DNA from: Candidatus Nanoarchaeia archaeon
GTDB taxonomy: Archaea > Nanobdellota > Nanobdellia > Woesearchaeales > JANQNC01
Assembly (NCBI GenBank): GCA_028279745.1
Contig: JANQNC010000001.1
Span: 240,001 to 272,000 of the forward strand
Direction of reading: 5' to 3'
DNA length: 32,000 nucleotides
Part shown: positions 3,888-7,515 of the stretch, one piece after another
Layout: the number at the start of each line of letters is the position of its first letter
Numbering within the stretch: the stretch's first letter is position 1
Notes under the pieces: generated by a model
What the model saw: the letters and a program-made list of their open reading frames with translations, nothing else
Databases searched by the model: none
What the model was told of the DNA's origin: nothing
Made by a program: the position numbers and the translations under genes

Positions 3888-3950
3888 TTCATTATTGCAT
3901 TAGCAACAACACACACCTTCATTGACTTTATACCTTCAGTATTTTTAGCA
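3888..3950 (+). pseudogene. relic fragment of a TctA/DUF112 permease homologue (matches codons 53-72 of the gene at 6295..7515)
   Basis: 3888-3947 aligns with 6451-6510. Both encode the same 20 aa (FIIALATTHTFIDFIPSVFL) with 8 differences, all at third codon positions. Similarity stops abruptly on both sides, and there is an in-frame stop at 3864. Confidence 0.65.
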
Positions 3951-4021
3951 AGCATCGAAAAAGTTCGATGTTTTCAGCAAAATTCAATGCTTTTAGCCCA
4001 AAATACACACATCAAACCTTG

Positions 4022-4067
4022 CCCCTACTTTTGTTTGAAAAAAGAAATATTTATATATAAGTAGGGG
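4022..4067. repeat. inverted repeat CCCCTACTT / AAGTAGGGG enclosing the fic TATA box
   Basis: Arms at 4022-4030 and 4059-4067. The 28-nt spacer contains ATATTTATATATAA (4047-4060), about 25 nt upstream of the fic ATG. Confidence 0.6.
4047..4060 (+). promoter_or_regulatory. TATA box of fic (leaderless spacing)
   Basis: ATATTTATATATAA centred about 27 nt upstream of ATG 4080. Confidence 0.45.
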
Positions 4068-4079
4068 TAAATAAATAAA

Positions 4080-4967
4080 ATGGCAAACATAAGAAAAAGA
4101 AACATAGGAAAAAAACAATACTACTACTTAGAACACTCTTACAAAGAAAACAAAAAAGTCAAAAAAGAAGAATTATACCTAGGAACTGAAATACCAAAAG
4201 ACATCGAAAAGATAAAAACACAATTCCTCAACAAAATCTACCAAAAAAAATGGTTTGATAAACTAAACAAAATAAAGAAAGAATTCCAAAAAGAATTCAA
4301 ATCAATGCCAAACTTAGCCAAAGAAAAATATATTGAAAACTTCATGGTAAAATTCACATACGACTCCAACAAAATAGAAGGAAGCACAATAACATTAAAA
4401 GAGACCGCAATGCTTCTTGAAGACGGGATTGTTCCCAAAAACAAACCCATAAAAGACGTAAAAGAGACCGAATCACACAAAAAAGCATTCTACGAAATGC
4501 TAAAATACAAAAAAGATCTAAGTTTGAATATGGTTCTTCACCTTCACAGAACATTATTTAACGAAACAGAACCAGAAATAGCAGGAAAAATAAGAAAACA
4601 CGGCGTCGGTGTTGCAGGAAGCAAAACAAAATTCCCAATACCCGCAGAATTAGAACCCTTATTAAGGGAATTCTTCAAATGGTACAACAAAAACAAAGAC
4701 AAAATGCACCCTGTAGAACTAGCTACATTAGTTCATCTCAAATTCGTTTCTATACATCCATTTACAGATGGAAACGGAAGAATAAGCAGACTAATCATGA
4801 ACTTTGTCCTATACAAAAATGGATTTCCAATGCTCGACATCAAGTATTCTAATAGAAGCAATTATTATACCGCATTAGAAAGAGCACAGATAAAACATGT
4901 TGAGATGATATTTGTACAGCACATCATCAAGAGATATTTGAAAGAATATAATCAATATCTGAAATGA
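4080..4967 (+). CDS. fic: Fic/DOC family protein (AMPylase-type), with an N-terminal auto-inhibitory helix motif
   Basis: Canonical Fic motif HPFTDGNGRISR (HxFx[D/E]GNGRxxR) at aa 226-237. SNKIEG at aa 96-101 fits the inhibitory [S/T]xxxE[G/N] motif. Confidence 0.93.
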   Translation: MANIRKRNIGKKQYYYLEHSYKENKKVKKEELYLGTEIPKDIEKIKTQFLNKIYQKKWFDKLNKIKKEFQKEFKSMPNLAKEKYIENFMVKFTYDSNKIEGSTITLKETAMLLEDGIVPKNKPIKDVKETESHKKAFYEMLKYKKDLSLNMVLHLHRTLFNETEPEIAGKIRKHGVGVAGSKTKFPIPAELEPLLREFFKWYNKNKDKMHPVELATLVHLKFVSIHPFTDGNGRISRLIMNFVLYKNGFPMLDIKYSNRSNYYTALERAQIKHVEMIFVQHIIKRYLKEYNQYLK

Positions 4968-4970
4968 TTC

Positions 4971-5022
4971 TTACCCCTACCTTTATAATAAAATATGAAT
5001 TAATTAACAAAAGTAGGGGTAA
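4971..5022. repeat. inverted repeat TTACCCCTAC / GTAGGGGTAA between the convergent stops of fic and the Zn-ribbon gene
   Basis: Arms at 4971-4980 and 5013-5022. The 32-nt spacer contains the TATA-like CTTTATAATAAAA. It uses the same half-site as the repeat at 4022-4067. AAGTAGGGGTAAA recurs as a direct repeat at 4059-4071 and 5011-5023. Confidence 0.6.
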
Positions 5023-5024
5023 AA

Positions 5025-5258
5025 CTATTCACTCTTAGCCAAAAAATAACCAAACCAAATAAACTCATTACACTGAACATTTTTTTTGAAATCCATAATA
5101 GCCAAATCTCTCCCAAGAGCCTTCTCCAAACAAACAAGACACAGCATACTGTCTTTCTCTTGTTTTGCCTCTTTCCAAACCCTATCCTTAACCATAAAAA
5201 AATTATGCAACTTTTTACAAGAATCACAACAAACAGAGCAAGGTTTTTTGTCAACCAT
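5025..5258 (-). CDS. small Cys-rich (zinc-ribbon-like) protein, 77 aa
   Basis: CSVCCDSC...CLVCLEKALGRDL gives two CxxC-type pairs. A TATA box (minus-strand TTTTATATATC, about 5281-5291) is centred about 27 nt upstream of the ATG. Preferred over the overlapping ORFs 5000..5254(-) and 5086..5340(+). Confidence 0.55.
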   Translation of the reverse strand: MVDKKPCSVCCDSCKKLHNFFMVKDRVWKEAKQEKDSMLCLVCLEKALGRDLAIMDFKKNVQCNEFIWFGYFLAKSE

Positions 5259-5436
5259 TTTGATCAGAAAAACAAACCAGATATATAAAACCTCCTCAAA
5301 AACAAAAACACAAAAAAATACTCTTTTATTTGACCTTTAGAAAAGGGTGATCTTGTTTGGGGCAAAAAATCATACCCTTGTTTGAAAAGCGAAATTAAGA
5401 ATTTAGAAGAGGATTATTTAGTTCTAAAAAATCGTC

Positions 5437-5991
5437 CTATTTTTTAGTGTGTTTTCTATAAACTTGATCAATTATGTTTTGCAGAAAAAGTGCATTATTT
5501 TCTGTTTTTTTAAATTTTTTATATTTTAAAACTGAATTCGTGGTTCCTATAATTCCACCTGCAAATGATCCCATTAAACCCATAATAAATATTGCTTGTA
5601 AAGCCTTTCTTCTAGTAGGTTGTCCCTGTACCATTTCAAACCCTATTGATGAAACTCCTGCCATGTAAGCACCAGCCAAACCTCCGCCTGCTGTATTACA
5701 AATTACATTAGCATAGTTGTCTGAACCTATATATCCCACCAAGTCCTCTAATTCTATTAATGTTGGCTGAGTTTCTTGGATATTTATATGTGGAATGTAT
5801 TGATTAAGTCCTTTATGATGTTCAGAAAGTCGTTTGTATTCTTCTACAAGATTAAAATGACCTTTTATTACTCCGTCTAGTAACTTGTTTTCTTTTCTTT
5901 TTGATTCAAGTTCTTCTTTGTACTCTTTTATCTTATCAATTTTAACATAACTAGGAATTGCTTCAATCTTTCTTAATCTATCTGTAATCAT
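5437..5991 (-). CDS. membrane protein: N-terminal coiled coil plus C-terminal glycine-zipper-like TM pair
   Basis: E/K-rich helical N-terminus. C-terminal TAGGGLAGAYMAGVSSIGF and IFIMGLMGSFAGGIIGTT show GxxxG-type small-residue repeats. Confidence 0.6.
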   Translation of the reverse strand: MITDRLRKIEAIPSYVKIDKIKEYKEELESKRKENKLLDGVIKGHFNLVEEYKRLSEHHKGLNQYIPHINIQETQPTLIELEDLVGYIGSDNYANVICNTAGGGLAGAYMAGVSSIGFEMVQGQPTRRKALQAIFIMGLMGSFAGGIIGTTNSVLKYKKFKKTENNALFLQNIIDQVYRKHTKK

Positions 5992-6294
5992 GATAATTAG
6001 AAAATACTTTTAGTATTTAAAAGTAATGAAAAAAAACCACCGTTTATTTAATATCAAAAAACGCTTAAAATCGCCAAAAAAACGCTATTTTTTTAGAATT
6101 CTAAATAATAAGCCCTTTTTTACCTACAAAAATATGCTCCCTTTTTACTGCAAAAAAGATATCGGTGTTTTCAGCTCTATCGTAGATTCGTCCTTGTTTT
6201 TAGCAAAAACTTCGATGTTTTGTGTATAAACACCTGTAAGAATTACGACTTTTCTTTATAAACTAATTTAAACAAGTTTTACCATAAATAAAGT

Positions 6295-7515
6295 ATGTTA
6301 CTAGAGATATTAACAGCAATAATCTGCGGGATTTTATGTGGAGTGGCGACAGGCCTCGTTCCTGGTATACACGTGAACCTCGTCGCTGTAATGCTGATTT
6401 CAGTTAGTCCTTTATTGTTGCAATTTACTTCGCCAGTTGTTTTAGCTGTGTTCATAATAGCATTAGCAACAACCCACACCTTCATTGATTTTATTCCCTC
6501 AGTGTTTTTGGGAGTGCCTGATGCGGAGACTGCACTAAGCGTATTACCAGGACACAAATTAGTCTTACTAGGACAAGGATATGAAGCTGTAAAGTTAGCA
6601 ACAGTTGGCTCAATGATTGCTGTTGTCATTTCAGCTTTGATATTTCCTTTAATGATATTGATTGTTCCTTTTATTTATTCAACCATTTCAGATTATGTTG
6701 GATGGATACTCTTGTTGGTTGTATCTGTTCTTATCTTAAAAGAGAAAGGAAAGAATAGAAAGTTCTGGAGTCTATTCATATTCTTAATTTCTGGAATCTT
6801 AGGTTATATCGTTTTGAATATCAAAGTTTTATCTGAGCCATTATTCCCTTTACTAGGAGGATTATTCGGAACATCAATGTTGATAAACTCATTATTTGAG
6901 AAATCTTCTTTACCGTGGCAACGAGTGACTGAGCAAATTGAAGTAAATAAAACAACAACAGCAAAAGCAGGATTTGCAGCAACAGTTGCAGGAGGCATGA
7001 CAGGAATTTTGCCAGGAATAGGTGCAGCACAGGCATCAGTAATAGGCTCGGCAATTGTGGGAGGAATGGAAAAGATAGGCATTCCTGGATTTTTGATTTT
7101 ACAAGGAGGCATAAATACAGTAAATTTTGTACTTTCATTGGTTGCGTTATACACATTAGGCAAAGCAAGAAATGGTGCAGTAGTCACAGTGATGAGATTT
7201 ATTTCAGAAATAAATGTATATCAATTAATGACTTTTATTGCTGTAGCATTAGTTGTTGGAGGGATAGCAACAATAGTTGCATTAGCTTTAGCAAAGAAGT
7301 TTGCAGTCTGGGTGAGGAAAGTAAATTATCAAGTGATGTGTTTAGGAGTTATTCTCTTAATTGTAGTTATGGTGTTTTTGTTTAGTGGCTTTCTTGGATT
7401 GCTAATTTTATTTGTCTCAACGATGACAGGATTAATACCAATGAGACTAGGCATTGCGAAAAACCATATGATGGGGTGCATAATCTTACCTGTAATAATA
7501 TACTTCTTACTGTAA
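6295..7515 (+). CDS. tripartite tricarboxylate transporter TctA-like (DUF112) permease
   Basis: Polytopic 406-aa protein with an internally repeated G-x-(L/V)PGI signature (GLVPGIHVN near the N-terminus; GILPGIGAAQASVIG mid-protein), as in the TctA/DUF112 family. Confidence 0.65.
   Translation: MLLEILTAIICGILCGVATGLVPGIHVNLVAVMLISVSPLLLQFTSPVVLAVFIIALATTHTFIDFIPSVFLGVPDAETALSVLPGHKLVLLGQGYEAVKLATVGSMIAVVISALIFPLMILIVPFIYSTISDYVGWILLLVVSVLILKEKGKNRKFWSLFIFLISGILGYIVLNIKVLSEPLFPLLGGLFGTSMLINSLFEKSSLPWQRVTEQIEVNKTTTAKAGFAATVAGGMTGILPGIGAAQASVIGSAIVGGMEKIGIPGFLILQGGINTVNFVLSLVALYTLGKARNGAVVTVMRFISEINVYQLMTFIAVALVVGGIATIVALALAKKFAVWVRKVNYQVMCLGVILLIVVMVFLFSGFLGLLILFVSTMTGLIPMRLGIAKNHMMGCIILPVIIYFLL

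What the first reader, a model, noticed from the sequence alone, without database searches (positions are those of the whole stretch)
3888..6513. 60-bp relic of a permease homologue, differing only at synonymous sites, bounds a 2.5-kb Fic islet next to the intact permease gene
Positions 3888-3947, in otherwise non-coding DNA, align with 6451-6510 inside the TctA-like gene. Both encode the same 20 codons (FIIALATTHTFIDFIPSVFL). There are 8 nucleotide differences, all at third codon positions, and no amino-acid change. Similarity ends abruptly on both sides. Purely synonymous divergence means the fragment came from a functional, diverged copy of the gene (another lineage or a paralogue) and was truncated recently. 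It is not slow in-place decay. That pattern is expected for an att-like segment carried by an integrative element, or for the scar of a recombination or replacement event. Between the two copies lie fic, a small Zn-ribbon gene, a glycine-zipper membrane protein and unusually long spacers (about 400, 180 and 300 bp) in a window that is otherwise tightly packed. Short motifs are also shared between the two ends: TTTTTAGCAA (3942-3951 / 6197-6206), TTCGATGTTTT (3964-3974 / 6211-6221) and CGRTGTTTTCAGC (3966-3978 / 6163-6175). No integrase is visible in the interval, so it would be a degraded or non-autonomous element.
Basis: seen in the sequence. Interest (0 to 1): 0.65.

Follow-up and report, generated by a model that had tools for sequence, protein, structure and literature searches.

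The report
Permease gene fragment marking insertion scar
A 60-base leftover of a second, related copy of a transporter gene lies 2.5 kb upstream of the intact gene in a tiny (DPANN) archaeon and marks where accessory DNA carrying a Fic gene was spliced in; this is a genuine but familiar kind of recombination scar, and related archaea carry similar leftovers at the ends of the same gene.

Summary
Window 3888-3947 and 6451-6510 match at 52 of 60 bases. All 8 differences are at third codon positions and synonymous, and both copies encode TctA residues 53-72. Similarity stops abruptly on both sides. Chance, assembly error and in-place decay are excluded (dS about 1, dN 0/46 sites).

The host is a Woesearchaeota/Nanoarchaeota-type archaeon with no close relative in the databases, so no empty-site test was possible.

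In 160 related TctA loci, none of the islet genes neighbours TctA. The ancestral neighbour is an OB-fold gene that abuts TctA. Ten other loci carry short TctA leftovers of the same sort. Five are 5' leftovers, all ending after the T-G-L codons (ACAGGC). Six are 3' leftovers. Between leftover and gene lie 0-4.5 kb of accessory genes and never an integrase.

The window fragment is therefore best read as the scar of an insertion or replacement at a recurrently hit gene. It differs from the other leftovers in being internal: codons 1-52 are missing. A simple attL/attR reading fails and a second rearrangement must be assumed. No recombinase lies in the window or in the 11 kb to its left. The kind of feature is known; interest is moderate.

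The parts
3888..3947 (+). 60-bp relic of a diverged TctA allele (codons 53-72), truncated on both sides and non-coding (in-frame TGA at 3864-3866, no start codon between it and the relic)
6451..6510 (+). Counterpart of the relic inside the intact TctA gene (codons 53-72, the most conserved block of the family)
6295..7515 (+). Intact TctA-family permease gene. Codons 1-72 have GC3 0.39 against 0.27 for the rest, a weak hint of a mosaic gene.
3948..6294 (.). Accessory islet between relic and TctA start. G+C is 0.305, the lowest of all same-size stretches in the window.
4080..4967 (+). Fic-domain gene. Nearest relatives are 79% and 71% identical, in unrelated contexts. It hits the PADLOC defence candidates PDC-S04 and SoFic.
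4019..4070 (.). Palindrome TTGCCCCTAC-N32-GTAGGGGTAA enclosing the Fic TATA box. It is conserved upstream of Fic homologues in other genomes.
4971..5022 (.). Second copy of the Fic palindrome directly after the Fic stop codon. L083 has the same arrangement.
5025..5258 (-). 77-aa Cys-rich protein gene. It matches phrog_6053, a viral family of unknown function (E 4.5e-15).
5437..5991 (-). 184-aa coiled-coil / Gly-rich membrane protein gene. It is an ORFan with no homologue in the 5.8-billion-protein search.
3958..3978 (+). Copy 1 of the 21-nt motif AAAAAGTTCGATGTTTTCAGC, 11 nt after the relic. Part of it forms a hairpin (CATCGAA/TTCGATG) followed by T4.
6155..6175 (+). Copy 2 of the 21-nt motif, upstream of the TctA promoter
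6205..6225 (+). Copy 3 of the 21-nt motif, 50 nt after copy 2 and 70 nt before the TctA start codon
3441..3683 (-). Left neighbour: 80-aa gene of unknown function. A consensus archaeal BRE/TATA promoter lies on the minus strand at 3787-3809. The gene is not found near TctA in any related locus.

Best explanation
The 60-bp segment is an inert scar. It is the last remnant of a different, once-functional TctA allele from the same narrow lineage as the resident gene, displaced when foreign DNA was recombined into the 5' part of TctA.

The most likely sequence of events:
(1) Incoming DNA carried the accessory genes (the Fic module, the 77-aa PHROG-like gene, the 184-aa ORFan) together with a promoter and a look-alike of TctA codons 1-72.
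(2) It recombined with the chromosomal gene in the family's most conserved block (codons 53-72). The crossover lay at the right edge of the block, around the T5 run at 3942-3946 / 6505-6509.
(3) This left an intact hybrid gene on the right and the old 5' end on the left.
(4) A second rearrangement (deletion, inversion or a further insertion) removed old codons 1-52 and the old upstream genes.

Shown: the relic is real and derives from a selected allele; truncation is recent relative to the allele divergence; the islet genes are not ancestral neighbours of TctA; related genomes repeatedly carry TctA gene-end relics with integrase-less cargo; in the 5' class the breakpoint is site-specific.

Inferred: that codons 1-72 came in with the islet; that a recombinase acting in trans did it, with the three 21-nt motif copies as possible arm-type or operator sites; and the second rearrangement.

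The confidence of 0.6 applies to 'scar of an insertion/replacement event involving a foreign allele'. For the specific site-specific, trans-recombinase route it is about 0.3.
For: - Relic statistics: 52/60 identity, 8/8 differences synonymous, dS about 1.08, dN 0/46, P about 9e-6.
- Relic and resident block are each other's nearest relatives among 140 TctA genes: 52/60, against a maximum of 48 (relic) and 47 (resident).
- None of 119 homologues has the same 20-mer peptide.
- Synteny: Lon..OB115 abutting TctA..L35Ae is the common arrangement. The window keeps only L35Ae on the right. None of the islet or left-flank genes occurs in 160 related loci.
- 5' relics of TctA in five genomes end at the same ACAGGC|YT. 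One of them, L148, shares an exact 32-nt core with the resident 5' end.
- 3' relics occur in six loci (L010, L011, L040, L061, L109, L147); in the four aligned, differences from the resident 3' end are few and amino-acid changes rare.
- L034, which has a relic plus 3.8 kb of cargo, has a nearest relative (L043, 84% TctA identity) in which OB115 abuts TctA. That is an empty site.
- Islet G+C is the window minimum, 3 sd below the mean.
- GC3 is 0.25 in the relic and 0.27 in TctA 73-406, but 0.39-0.40 in TctA 1-72.
- The 21-nt motif is shared between the relic's right flank and the TctA upstream spacer.
- Archaeal att sites of 29-69 bp and integration into protein-coding genes are documented (PMC6563490). 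Gene-end replacement that leaves a pseudo-copy is documented for e14/icd and Rac/ttcA (PMC6379469).
Against: - The relic is internal. The expected continuation into codons 1-52 and an old promoter is absent, so an extra, unobserved event is needed.
- None of the other 10 relic-bearing loci has a relic at this position.
- No integrase or other recombinase is present in the window or in the 11 kb to its left.
- No empty site, donor allele or population variant was found.
- No viral contig carries this TctA block.
- The GC3 step is only borderline: Fisher p 0.06, and 4.8% of control genes show as large a step.
Confidence: 0.6

Rival explanations
1. The event is the same kind (foreign allele plus cargo) but no dedicated recombinase was involved. 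The cause was homology-facilitated illegitimate recombination or patchy double-strand-break repair. Homology in the conserved TctA blocks anchored one end. The other joins were illegitimate, and a 60-bp piece of the other allele survived as filler between two junctions.
For: - The relic has two abrupt, unrelated junctions.
- There is microhomology at the right junction (TTTTTAG, 3942-3948 versus 6197-6203 and 6505-6510).
- There is no integrase anywhere nearby, nor in any of the nine cargo sets of other relic-bearing loci.
- The conserved blocks are exactly where diverged alleles keep enough identity for homologous pairing.
Against: Five independent 5' relics in other genomes end at the same nucleotides. 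That argues for site-specific cutting in this gene family's history rather than random illegitimate joins. The repeated 21-nt motif on both sides of the islet is not explained by this model.
Confidence: 0.22
2. The relic is what remains of an old tandem paralogue of TctA. That copy sat upstream of the present gene, stayed under selection for a long time, and was recently destroyed by two deletions or insertions.
For: The two copies are each other's nearest relatives and lie on the same strand 2.5 kb apart. The purely synonymous divergence fits two long-selected copies.
Against: None of 160 related loci has a second TctA copy within 10 kb. Two independent truncations would have to spare exactly the most conserved 20 codons. 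The islet between the copies is compositionally deviant and made of dispersed or ORFan genes.
Confidence: 0.1
3. The 60-bp segment is kept because it is functional now. It could be a live attachment site, a protein-binding site, a small RNA or peptide, or an antisense regulator of TctA. On this view the synonymous-only differences are changes in the gene, while the fragment itself is conserved at the nucleotide level.
For: There is no change at 46 non-synonymous positions. A motif and hairpin are adjacent. A gene caller placed a 54-aa ORF on the opposite strand, 3791-3955.
Against: - No start codon precedes the sense frame, and an in-frame stop lies at 3864.
- The antisense frame is also open across the resident copy (ORF 6279-6629). 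The 54-aa product matches nothing.
- There is no Rfam match, and folding z-scores are -1.8 and -1.6.
- No consensus archaeal promoter points into the segment (reading of the sequence).
- Conservation cannot be assessed, because no second genome has the segment.
Confidence: 0.05
4. The match is a chance match or an assembly artefact.
For: None beyond the AT-rich background.
Against: E is about 8e-15. The next-best 60-mer match is 32/60. Two assemblies are identical. The longest exact run is 14 nt, too short for a k-mer join.
Confidence: 0.01

Closest known systems
Prophage gene-end replacement in E. coli K-12: e14 in icd (leaves the 163-bp pseudo-copy icd') and Rac at the 5' end of ttcA (PMC6379469)
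   Same: A mobile element recombines inside a conserved protein-coding gene and supplies a look-alike of the gene end, so the gene stays intact. The displaced original end stays behind as a short non-coding duplicate that differs mainly at silent positions.
   Different: In those cases the displaced piece runs to the natural end of the gene, an integrase is present, and excision has been demonstrated. Here the piece is internal (codons 53-72 only), no integrase is visible, the insert is only 2.5 kb, and the host is a DPANN archaeon.
Archaeal integrated mobile elements with att sites in protein-coding genes (Thaumarchaeota: 14 of 68 iMGEs sit in 3'-distal regions of genes; crenarchaeal att sites are 29-69 bp) (PMC6563490)
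   Same: The repeat length (60 bp) is in the archaeal att range. The target is a conserved chromosomal gene. The 3' relics I found in other Woesearchaeota TctA loci match this pattern well.
   Different: Those elements were delimited with empty-site comparisons and mostly encode integrases. The window case has neither, and its site is 5'-proximal and internal.
Homology-facilitated illegitimate recombination / foreign-DNA acquisition anchored by one homologous segment (established concept from bacterial transformation studies; my own knowledge, not checked here)
   Same: It explains integrase-less insertion of foreign genes next to a conserved anchor gene, abrupt junctions and microhomology.
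   Different: It predicts scattered breakpoints. The five 5' relics in relatives share one breakpoint.
Degraded or non-autonomous genomic islands and satellites that use a recombinase supplied in trans and accumulate at one hotspot (e.g. mobilisable islands, tycheposon-type islands; my own knowledge)
   Same: Small cargo sets (defence/TA-like, metabolic) lie beside partial copies of the target gene, with no recombinase of their own, and recur at the same gene in many genomes.
   Different: No helper recombinase has been identified in any of these archaeal genomes, and mobility has not been shown.

Membership tests
Site-specific integrative element with gene-end replacement (attL/attR) | Direct repeats derived from the target gene flank the insert | tested here: met
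   3888-3947 and 6451-6510 lie on the same strand and are 87% identical.
Site-specific integrative element with gene-end replacement (attL/attR) | The displaced gene piece continues from the att site to the natural gene end (here the start codon and old promoter) | tested here: not met
   No TctA similarity lies left of 3888 in any frame, and none in the 11 kb beyond the window.
Site-specific integrative element with gene-end replacement (attL/attR) | A tyrosine or serine recombinase is encoded in or next to the element | tested here: not met
   Pfam scans of 30 ORFs in window 369-27665, including every islet gene, found none. The precomputed Pfam table for L091, to the left, shows none. The three ORFs beyond 27.7 kb and the rest of the 1.3-Mb contig could not be searched.
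Site-specific integrative element with gene-end replacement (attL/attR) | The target gene is intact because the element supplies the replaced end (mosaic gene) | tested here: inconclusive
   TctA is full length (PF01970 positions 1-422). The GC3 step at codon 72 is borderline (p 0.06).
Site-specific integrative element with gene-end replacement (attL/attR) | An empty site exists in close relatives, or excision products are detectable | not testable with these tools
   The nearest TctA is 59% identical. The exact-peptide DNA pattern finds nothing. Only one contig carries the locus. No read data are available.
Decayed tandem paralogue (ordinary pseudogene) | Substitutions spread over all codon positions; further fragments of the gene nearby; tandem copies in relatives | tested here: not met
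   All 8 differences are at position 3. There are no other fragments. None of 160 related loci has a second copy.
Transposon / IS / MITE target-site duplication | Short identical duplication, terminal inverted repeats, transposase | tested here: not met
   The repeat is 60 bp and 13% diverged. No terminal inverted repeats lie at 3948 / 6450. There is no transposase.
Integron-type cassette (considered for the Fic gene because of its flanking palindromes) | attC sites with RYYYAAC...GTTRRRY cores; IntI and attI nearby | tested here: not met
   The palindrome arms are CCCCTAC/GTAGGGG, read directly. The upstream copy encloses the Fic TATA box. There is no integrase.
TctA permease family (PF01970), for the resident gene and the origin of the relic | Full-length profile match; the relic matches the family's most conserved block | tested here: met
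   E 3.6e-53 over profile positions 1-422. The relic matches profile positions 52-75 with E 2.8e-8.

The most novel reading that the evidence does not exclude
TctA of Woesearchaeota may be a dedicated landing platform. One or more recombinases acting in trans would insert integrase-less cargo (defence/TA-like and metabolic genes) at fixed sites in the gene's conserved blocks, replacing the gene end each time. The fixed sites would be the T-G-L codons 19-21, the HAMGC 3' end and, as the window would show for the first time, the block at codons 53-72. The 21-nt motif copies would serve as arm-type sites. That would be an integron-like gene-capture system in DPANN archaea.
Probability: 0.12. Interest if true: 0.7.

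Novelty: new member of a known kind. Interest (0 to 1): 0.38.

Why it matters
For this genome, the scar shows that the 5' neighbourhood of TctA was rebuilt by horizontal DNA. That DNA brought in a Fic-type (defence-candidate) module and gave the permease a new promoter and probably a new 5' end.

More broadly, DPANN archaea have very few described mobile elements. The same conserved permease gene carries gene-end leftovers plus small integrase-less cargo in about 6% of 160 related loci, and the 5' class has a nucleotide-precise breakpoint. This points to a recurrent gene-targeted insertion route that could be used to find the responsible recombinase and to map flexible gene content in these reduced genomes.

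The window's own relic adds little mechanistic news beyond that.

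Tried and rejected
- **tRNA or RNA element as target:** no tRNA in the window. No Rfam match except a sub-threshold snoRNA hit inside the 77-aa gene. Folding of 3840-4020 on either strand is not significant.
- **Longer hidden pseudogene:** a six-frame TctA profile scan and permissive tblastn find only positions 52-75.
- **Repeat family:** the spacers 3684-4079, 5259-5436 and 5992-6294 have no other copies in the window or in the related loci then held (L003-L088), apart from a generic archaeal BRE/TATA consensus.
- **Donor allele or empty site:** a degenerate DNA pattern for the exact 20-mer gave 0 hits in JGI metagenomes. Exact-protein look-ups of TctA, Fic, the 80-aa and the 184-aa genes returned only one Logan contig, identical to the window.
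- **Leftward extension (L091):** no Lon, OB115, TctA fragment or integrase.
- **Viral origin:** there are no relatives of the 77-aa or 184-aa proteins, of TctA, or of the codon 53-72 block in IMG/VR.
- **The 184-aa protein:** it has no homologue at all.
- **Other internal relics:** the weak candidates in L031 and L068 were noise.
- **The 54-aa antisense ORF:** rejected as spurious.
- **Integron attC reading of the Fic palindromes:** rejected. The arms do not fit, and the palindrome is a promoter-embedded site conserved with Fic.
- **Literature:** searches found no report of TctA as an integration target.
- **Structure predictions:** jobs for the 77-aa and 80-aa proteins were submitted, but the machine stopped answering, so there is no result. 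Two late script calls also failed.

Full report
**1.

- Window 3888-3947 aligns without gaps to 6451-6510 at 52 of 60 bases.
- The eight differences are all at third codon positions. Both segments translate to FIIALATTHTFIDFIPSVFL.
- This peptide is residues 53-72 of the 406-residue TctA-family permease at 6295-7515 (PF01970, E 3.6e-53).
- The 90 bases on either side are 29% and 18% identical, which is background.
- The match is far beyond chance. The blastn E-value is about 8e-15, and a TctA profile matches the fragment at positions 52-75 with E 2.8e-8. The next-best 60-mer match in the whole window is 31-32/60.
- It is not an assembly product. A separate Logan assembly of run SRR20820740 matches the window at every overlapping base. 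The longest exact run shared by the two copies is 14 nt.

**2. What the substitution pattern says**

- The 60 bases hold 14 synonymous and 46 non-synonymous sites. Eight synonymous and no non-synonymous differences give pS 0.57 (dS about 1.08) and dN 0.
- Eight random substitutions would all be silent with probability about 9e-6.
- So both copies were under protein-level selection for nearly all of their divergence. The fragment can have drifted as non-coding DNA for at most about 0.065 substitutions per site.
- The fragment is not translatable now. An in-frame TGA lies at 3864-3866, with no start codon between it and the fragment.
- None of 119 homologues has the same 20-residue peptide; most have HTFLD, not HTFID.
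- At the DNA level, relic and resident copy are each other's nearest relatives among 140 TctA genes: 52/60, against at most 48 (relic) and 47 (resident).
- The other allele therefore came from the same narrow lineage, either a sister species or a paralogue.

**3. Host and surroundings**

- Best hits of TctA (59% or less) and of Fic are Woesearchaeota/Nanoarchaeota MAGs, and an L35Ae gene lies nearby. The host is a DPANN archaeon with no close relative in the databases.
- Between relic and TctA lie three genes:
  - a Fic gene (PF02661; it also hits the PADLOC candidates PDC-S04 and SoFic);
  - a 77-aa Cys-rich gene matching the viral family phrog_6053;
  - a 184-aa membrane ORFan with no homologue at all.
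- The islet 3948-6294 has G+C 0.305. That is the minimum of all same-size stretches in the window (mean 0.347, sd 0.014).
- There is no tRNA gene, no Rfam family above threshold and no significant RNA fold.
- No integrase or other recombinase was found among the 30 ORFs scanned (window 369-27665), nor in the gene table of the 11 kb to the left.

**4. Comparative evidence**

I fetched 80 TctA loci from GTDB genomes and 80 from metagenomes.

- The common arrangement is Lon (minus strand), then an OB-fold gene of about 115 aa abutting or overlapping TctA, then L35Ae a variable distance downstream.
- The window keeps only L35Ae. Neither its islet genes nor its left-flank genes nor its right neighbour EamA occur in any of the 160 loci.
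- Its three closest relatives (L003-L005) each have different upstream genes. The 5' side of TctA is therefore a variable region.
- A six-frame profile scan found short TctA leftovers in ten other loci.
- Five are 5' leftovers (profile positions 1 to 21-23), lying 1.4-4.5 kb upstream on the same strand: L010, L033, L034, L066 and L148.
  - All five end at the same nucleotides, directly after the T-G-L codons (ACAGGC|YT).
  - In L148 the relic shares an exact 32-nt stretch with the resident 5' end, preceded by diverged sequence.
- Six are 3' leftovers, running from about HAMGC to the stop codon, 50 bp to 1.5 kb downstream: L010, L011, L040, L061, L109 and L147. The four aligned (L010, L011, L040, L061) differ from the resident 3' end at few bases and rarely in amino acid.
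- For L034, the nearest relative (L043, 84% TctA identity) has OB115 abutting TctA. That is an empty site.
- The cargo between relic and gene never includes an integrase. It comprises:
  - radical-SAM enzymes;
  - a methyltransferase with an rSAM/SPASM enzyme and an AsnC regulator;
  - a K+/H+ antiporter with ArsR;
  - RmuC with DUF3800;
  - an Ldh_2 dehydrogenase;
  - nucleotidyltransferase pairs.

TctA is thus hit recurrently in this group. Each event leaves a displaced gene end. At the 5' end the breakpoint is site-specific.

**5. How the window case fits, and where it does not**

- The fit is in kind: a same-strand TctA-derived relic, silent-only differences, small accessory cargo and no integrase. 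The 60-bp length lies within the range of archaeal att sites (29-69 bp; PMC6563490).
- The known analogues are e14 in icd, which leaves a 163-bp pseudo-copy, and Rac at the 5' end of ttcA (PMC6379469).
- The misfit is that the window relic is internal, covering codons 53-72 only.
  - If an element had brought a promoter plus codons 1-72 and crossed over in this block, the old codons 1-52 and the old upstream genes should lie left of 3888.
  - They do not, and nothing of the kind lies within 17 kb.
  - A second breakpoint is therefore required. It cannot be tested without the rest of the 1.3-Mb contig.
- Two weak observations agree with 'old allele on the left, imported 5' end on the right'.
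  - GC3 is 0.25 in the relic and 0.27 in TctA 73-406, but 0.39-0.40 in TctA 1-72. Fisher p is 0.06, and 4.8% of 147 control genes show as large a step.
  - A 21-nt motif (AAAAAGTTCGATGTTTTCAGC) lies 11 nt after the relic and twice, 50 nt apart, upstream of the TctA promoter. This similarity beats 99.8% of shuffles and every other part of the window. In a circular form of the islet these copies would flank the 60-bp block like arm-type sites. They could equally be operator sites.

**6. Verdict on mechanisms**

| Reading | Confidence | Main point |
|---|---|---|
| Inert scar of an insertion/replacement event that joined accessory DNA and probably a new 5' end to TctA, followed by a second rearrangement | about 0.6 | Site-specific recombination by an enzyme supplied in trans is the favoured sub-route (about 0.3) |
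| Homology-anchored illegitimate recombination without any dedicated enzyme | about 0.2 | Fits the two abrupt junctions and the microhomology, but not the precise shared breakpoint seen in relatives |
| Destroyed tandem paralogue | about 0.1 | None of 160 loci has two copies |
| Currently functional element | about 0.05 | No start codon, promoter or RNA signal |
| Chance or artefact | about 0.01 | Excluded by the statistics and the second assembly |

**7. Novelty and interest**

The feature is a new example of a well-known kind of scar, so its interest on its own is moderate to low. The more interesting by-product is the family-wide pattern: gene-end relics with integrase-less cargo at TctA, and a nucleotide-precise 5' breakpoint, in DPANN archaea whose mobile elements are poorly known. 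I could not show mobility or identify the enzyme.

Noticed in passing
window 4019-4070 and 4971-5022; L083 5943-5992 and 6894-6943; L086 and L087 upstream of Fic: The Fic gene carries a conserved palindrome, cTTACCCCTAC-N28-32-GTAGGGGTAAg, wrapped around its BRE/TATA box, and in two genomes a second copy right after the stop codon. The same palindrome precedes Fic homologues (70-79% identical) in unrelated genomic contexts (TA/R-M-rich regions). It looks like a self-contained, dispersed Fic module with its own operator. Many Fic homologues sit on very short contigs, which suggests assembly breaks around it.
   Followed up: partly
L010 4391-4456, L033 7247-7309, L034 6180-6242, L066 5398-5466, L148 8520-8585 (5' relics); L010 7731-7826, L011 10863-10913, L040 1383-1439, L061 7451-7534, L109 8831-8896, L147 3647-3715 (3' relics): Other Woesearchaeota TctA loci carry displaced gene-end relics. 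All five 5' relics end at the same ACAGGC|YT (T-G-L codons), and L148 shares an exact 32-nt core with the resident gene. Cargo between relic and gene is 0-4.5 kb (rSAM, methyltransferase, antiporter, RmuC/DUF3800, Ldh_2, nucleotidyltransferase pairs) and never includes an integrase. The 5' relics would still encode peptides of about 21-42 aa with one transmembrane helix.
   Followed up: partly
window 3958-3978, 6155-6175, 6205-6225: Three same-strand copies of a 21-nt motif (AAAAAGTTCGATGTTTTCAGC). One lies just after the relic and two lie 50 nt apart upstream of the TctA promoter. They could be operator or arm-type sites. The first copy is part of a hairpin followed by T4.
   Followed up: partly
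window 10239-11807 (-): A 522-aa protein with SLT lytic-transglycosylase and Peptidase_M23 domains (murein-hydrolase-like) is encoded next to the L35Ae ribosomal protein gene in an archaeon that has no murein. It may act on bacterial cell walls.
   Followed up: no
window about 1592-1621 (inside the methyltransferase gene 1381-2136): The two Logan contigs of SRR20820740 that cover this region (L001 and L091) end here with an overlap of about 30 nt. This is probably a graph branch caused by a strain variant in the population.
   Followed up: no
window 3787-3809 (-); also the Fic promoter 4036-4060 (+): A strong generic archaeal promoter consensus (AAACGAAAGATTTAAATA-like BRE/TATA) recurs near gene starts in many of the related loci. 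The copy at 3787-3809 points leftwards towards the 80-aa gene, away from the relic.
   Followed up: partly
window 6026-6229 (+): An uncalled 67-aa, very basic ORF (MKKNHRLFNIKKRLKSPKKRYFF...) fills much of the 303-bp spacer upstream of TctA and contains motif copies 2 and 3. It is unclear whether it is a gene.
   Followed up: no
window 21042-22317 (+) and 23962-25917 (-): Two adjacent small proteins have N-terminal KK-hydrophobic signal-like segments (archaeal pilin-like appearance). A HerA/TraG-like ATPase with a C-terminal MarR-type domain is also present. The pilin-like genes have no Pfam match.
   Followed up: no
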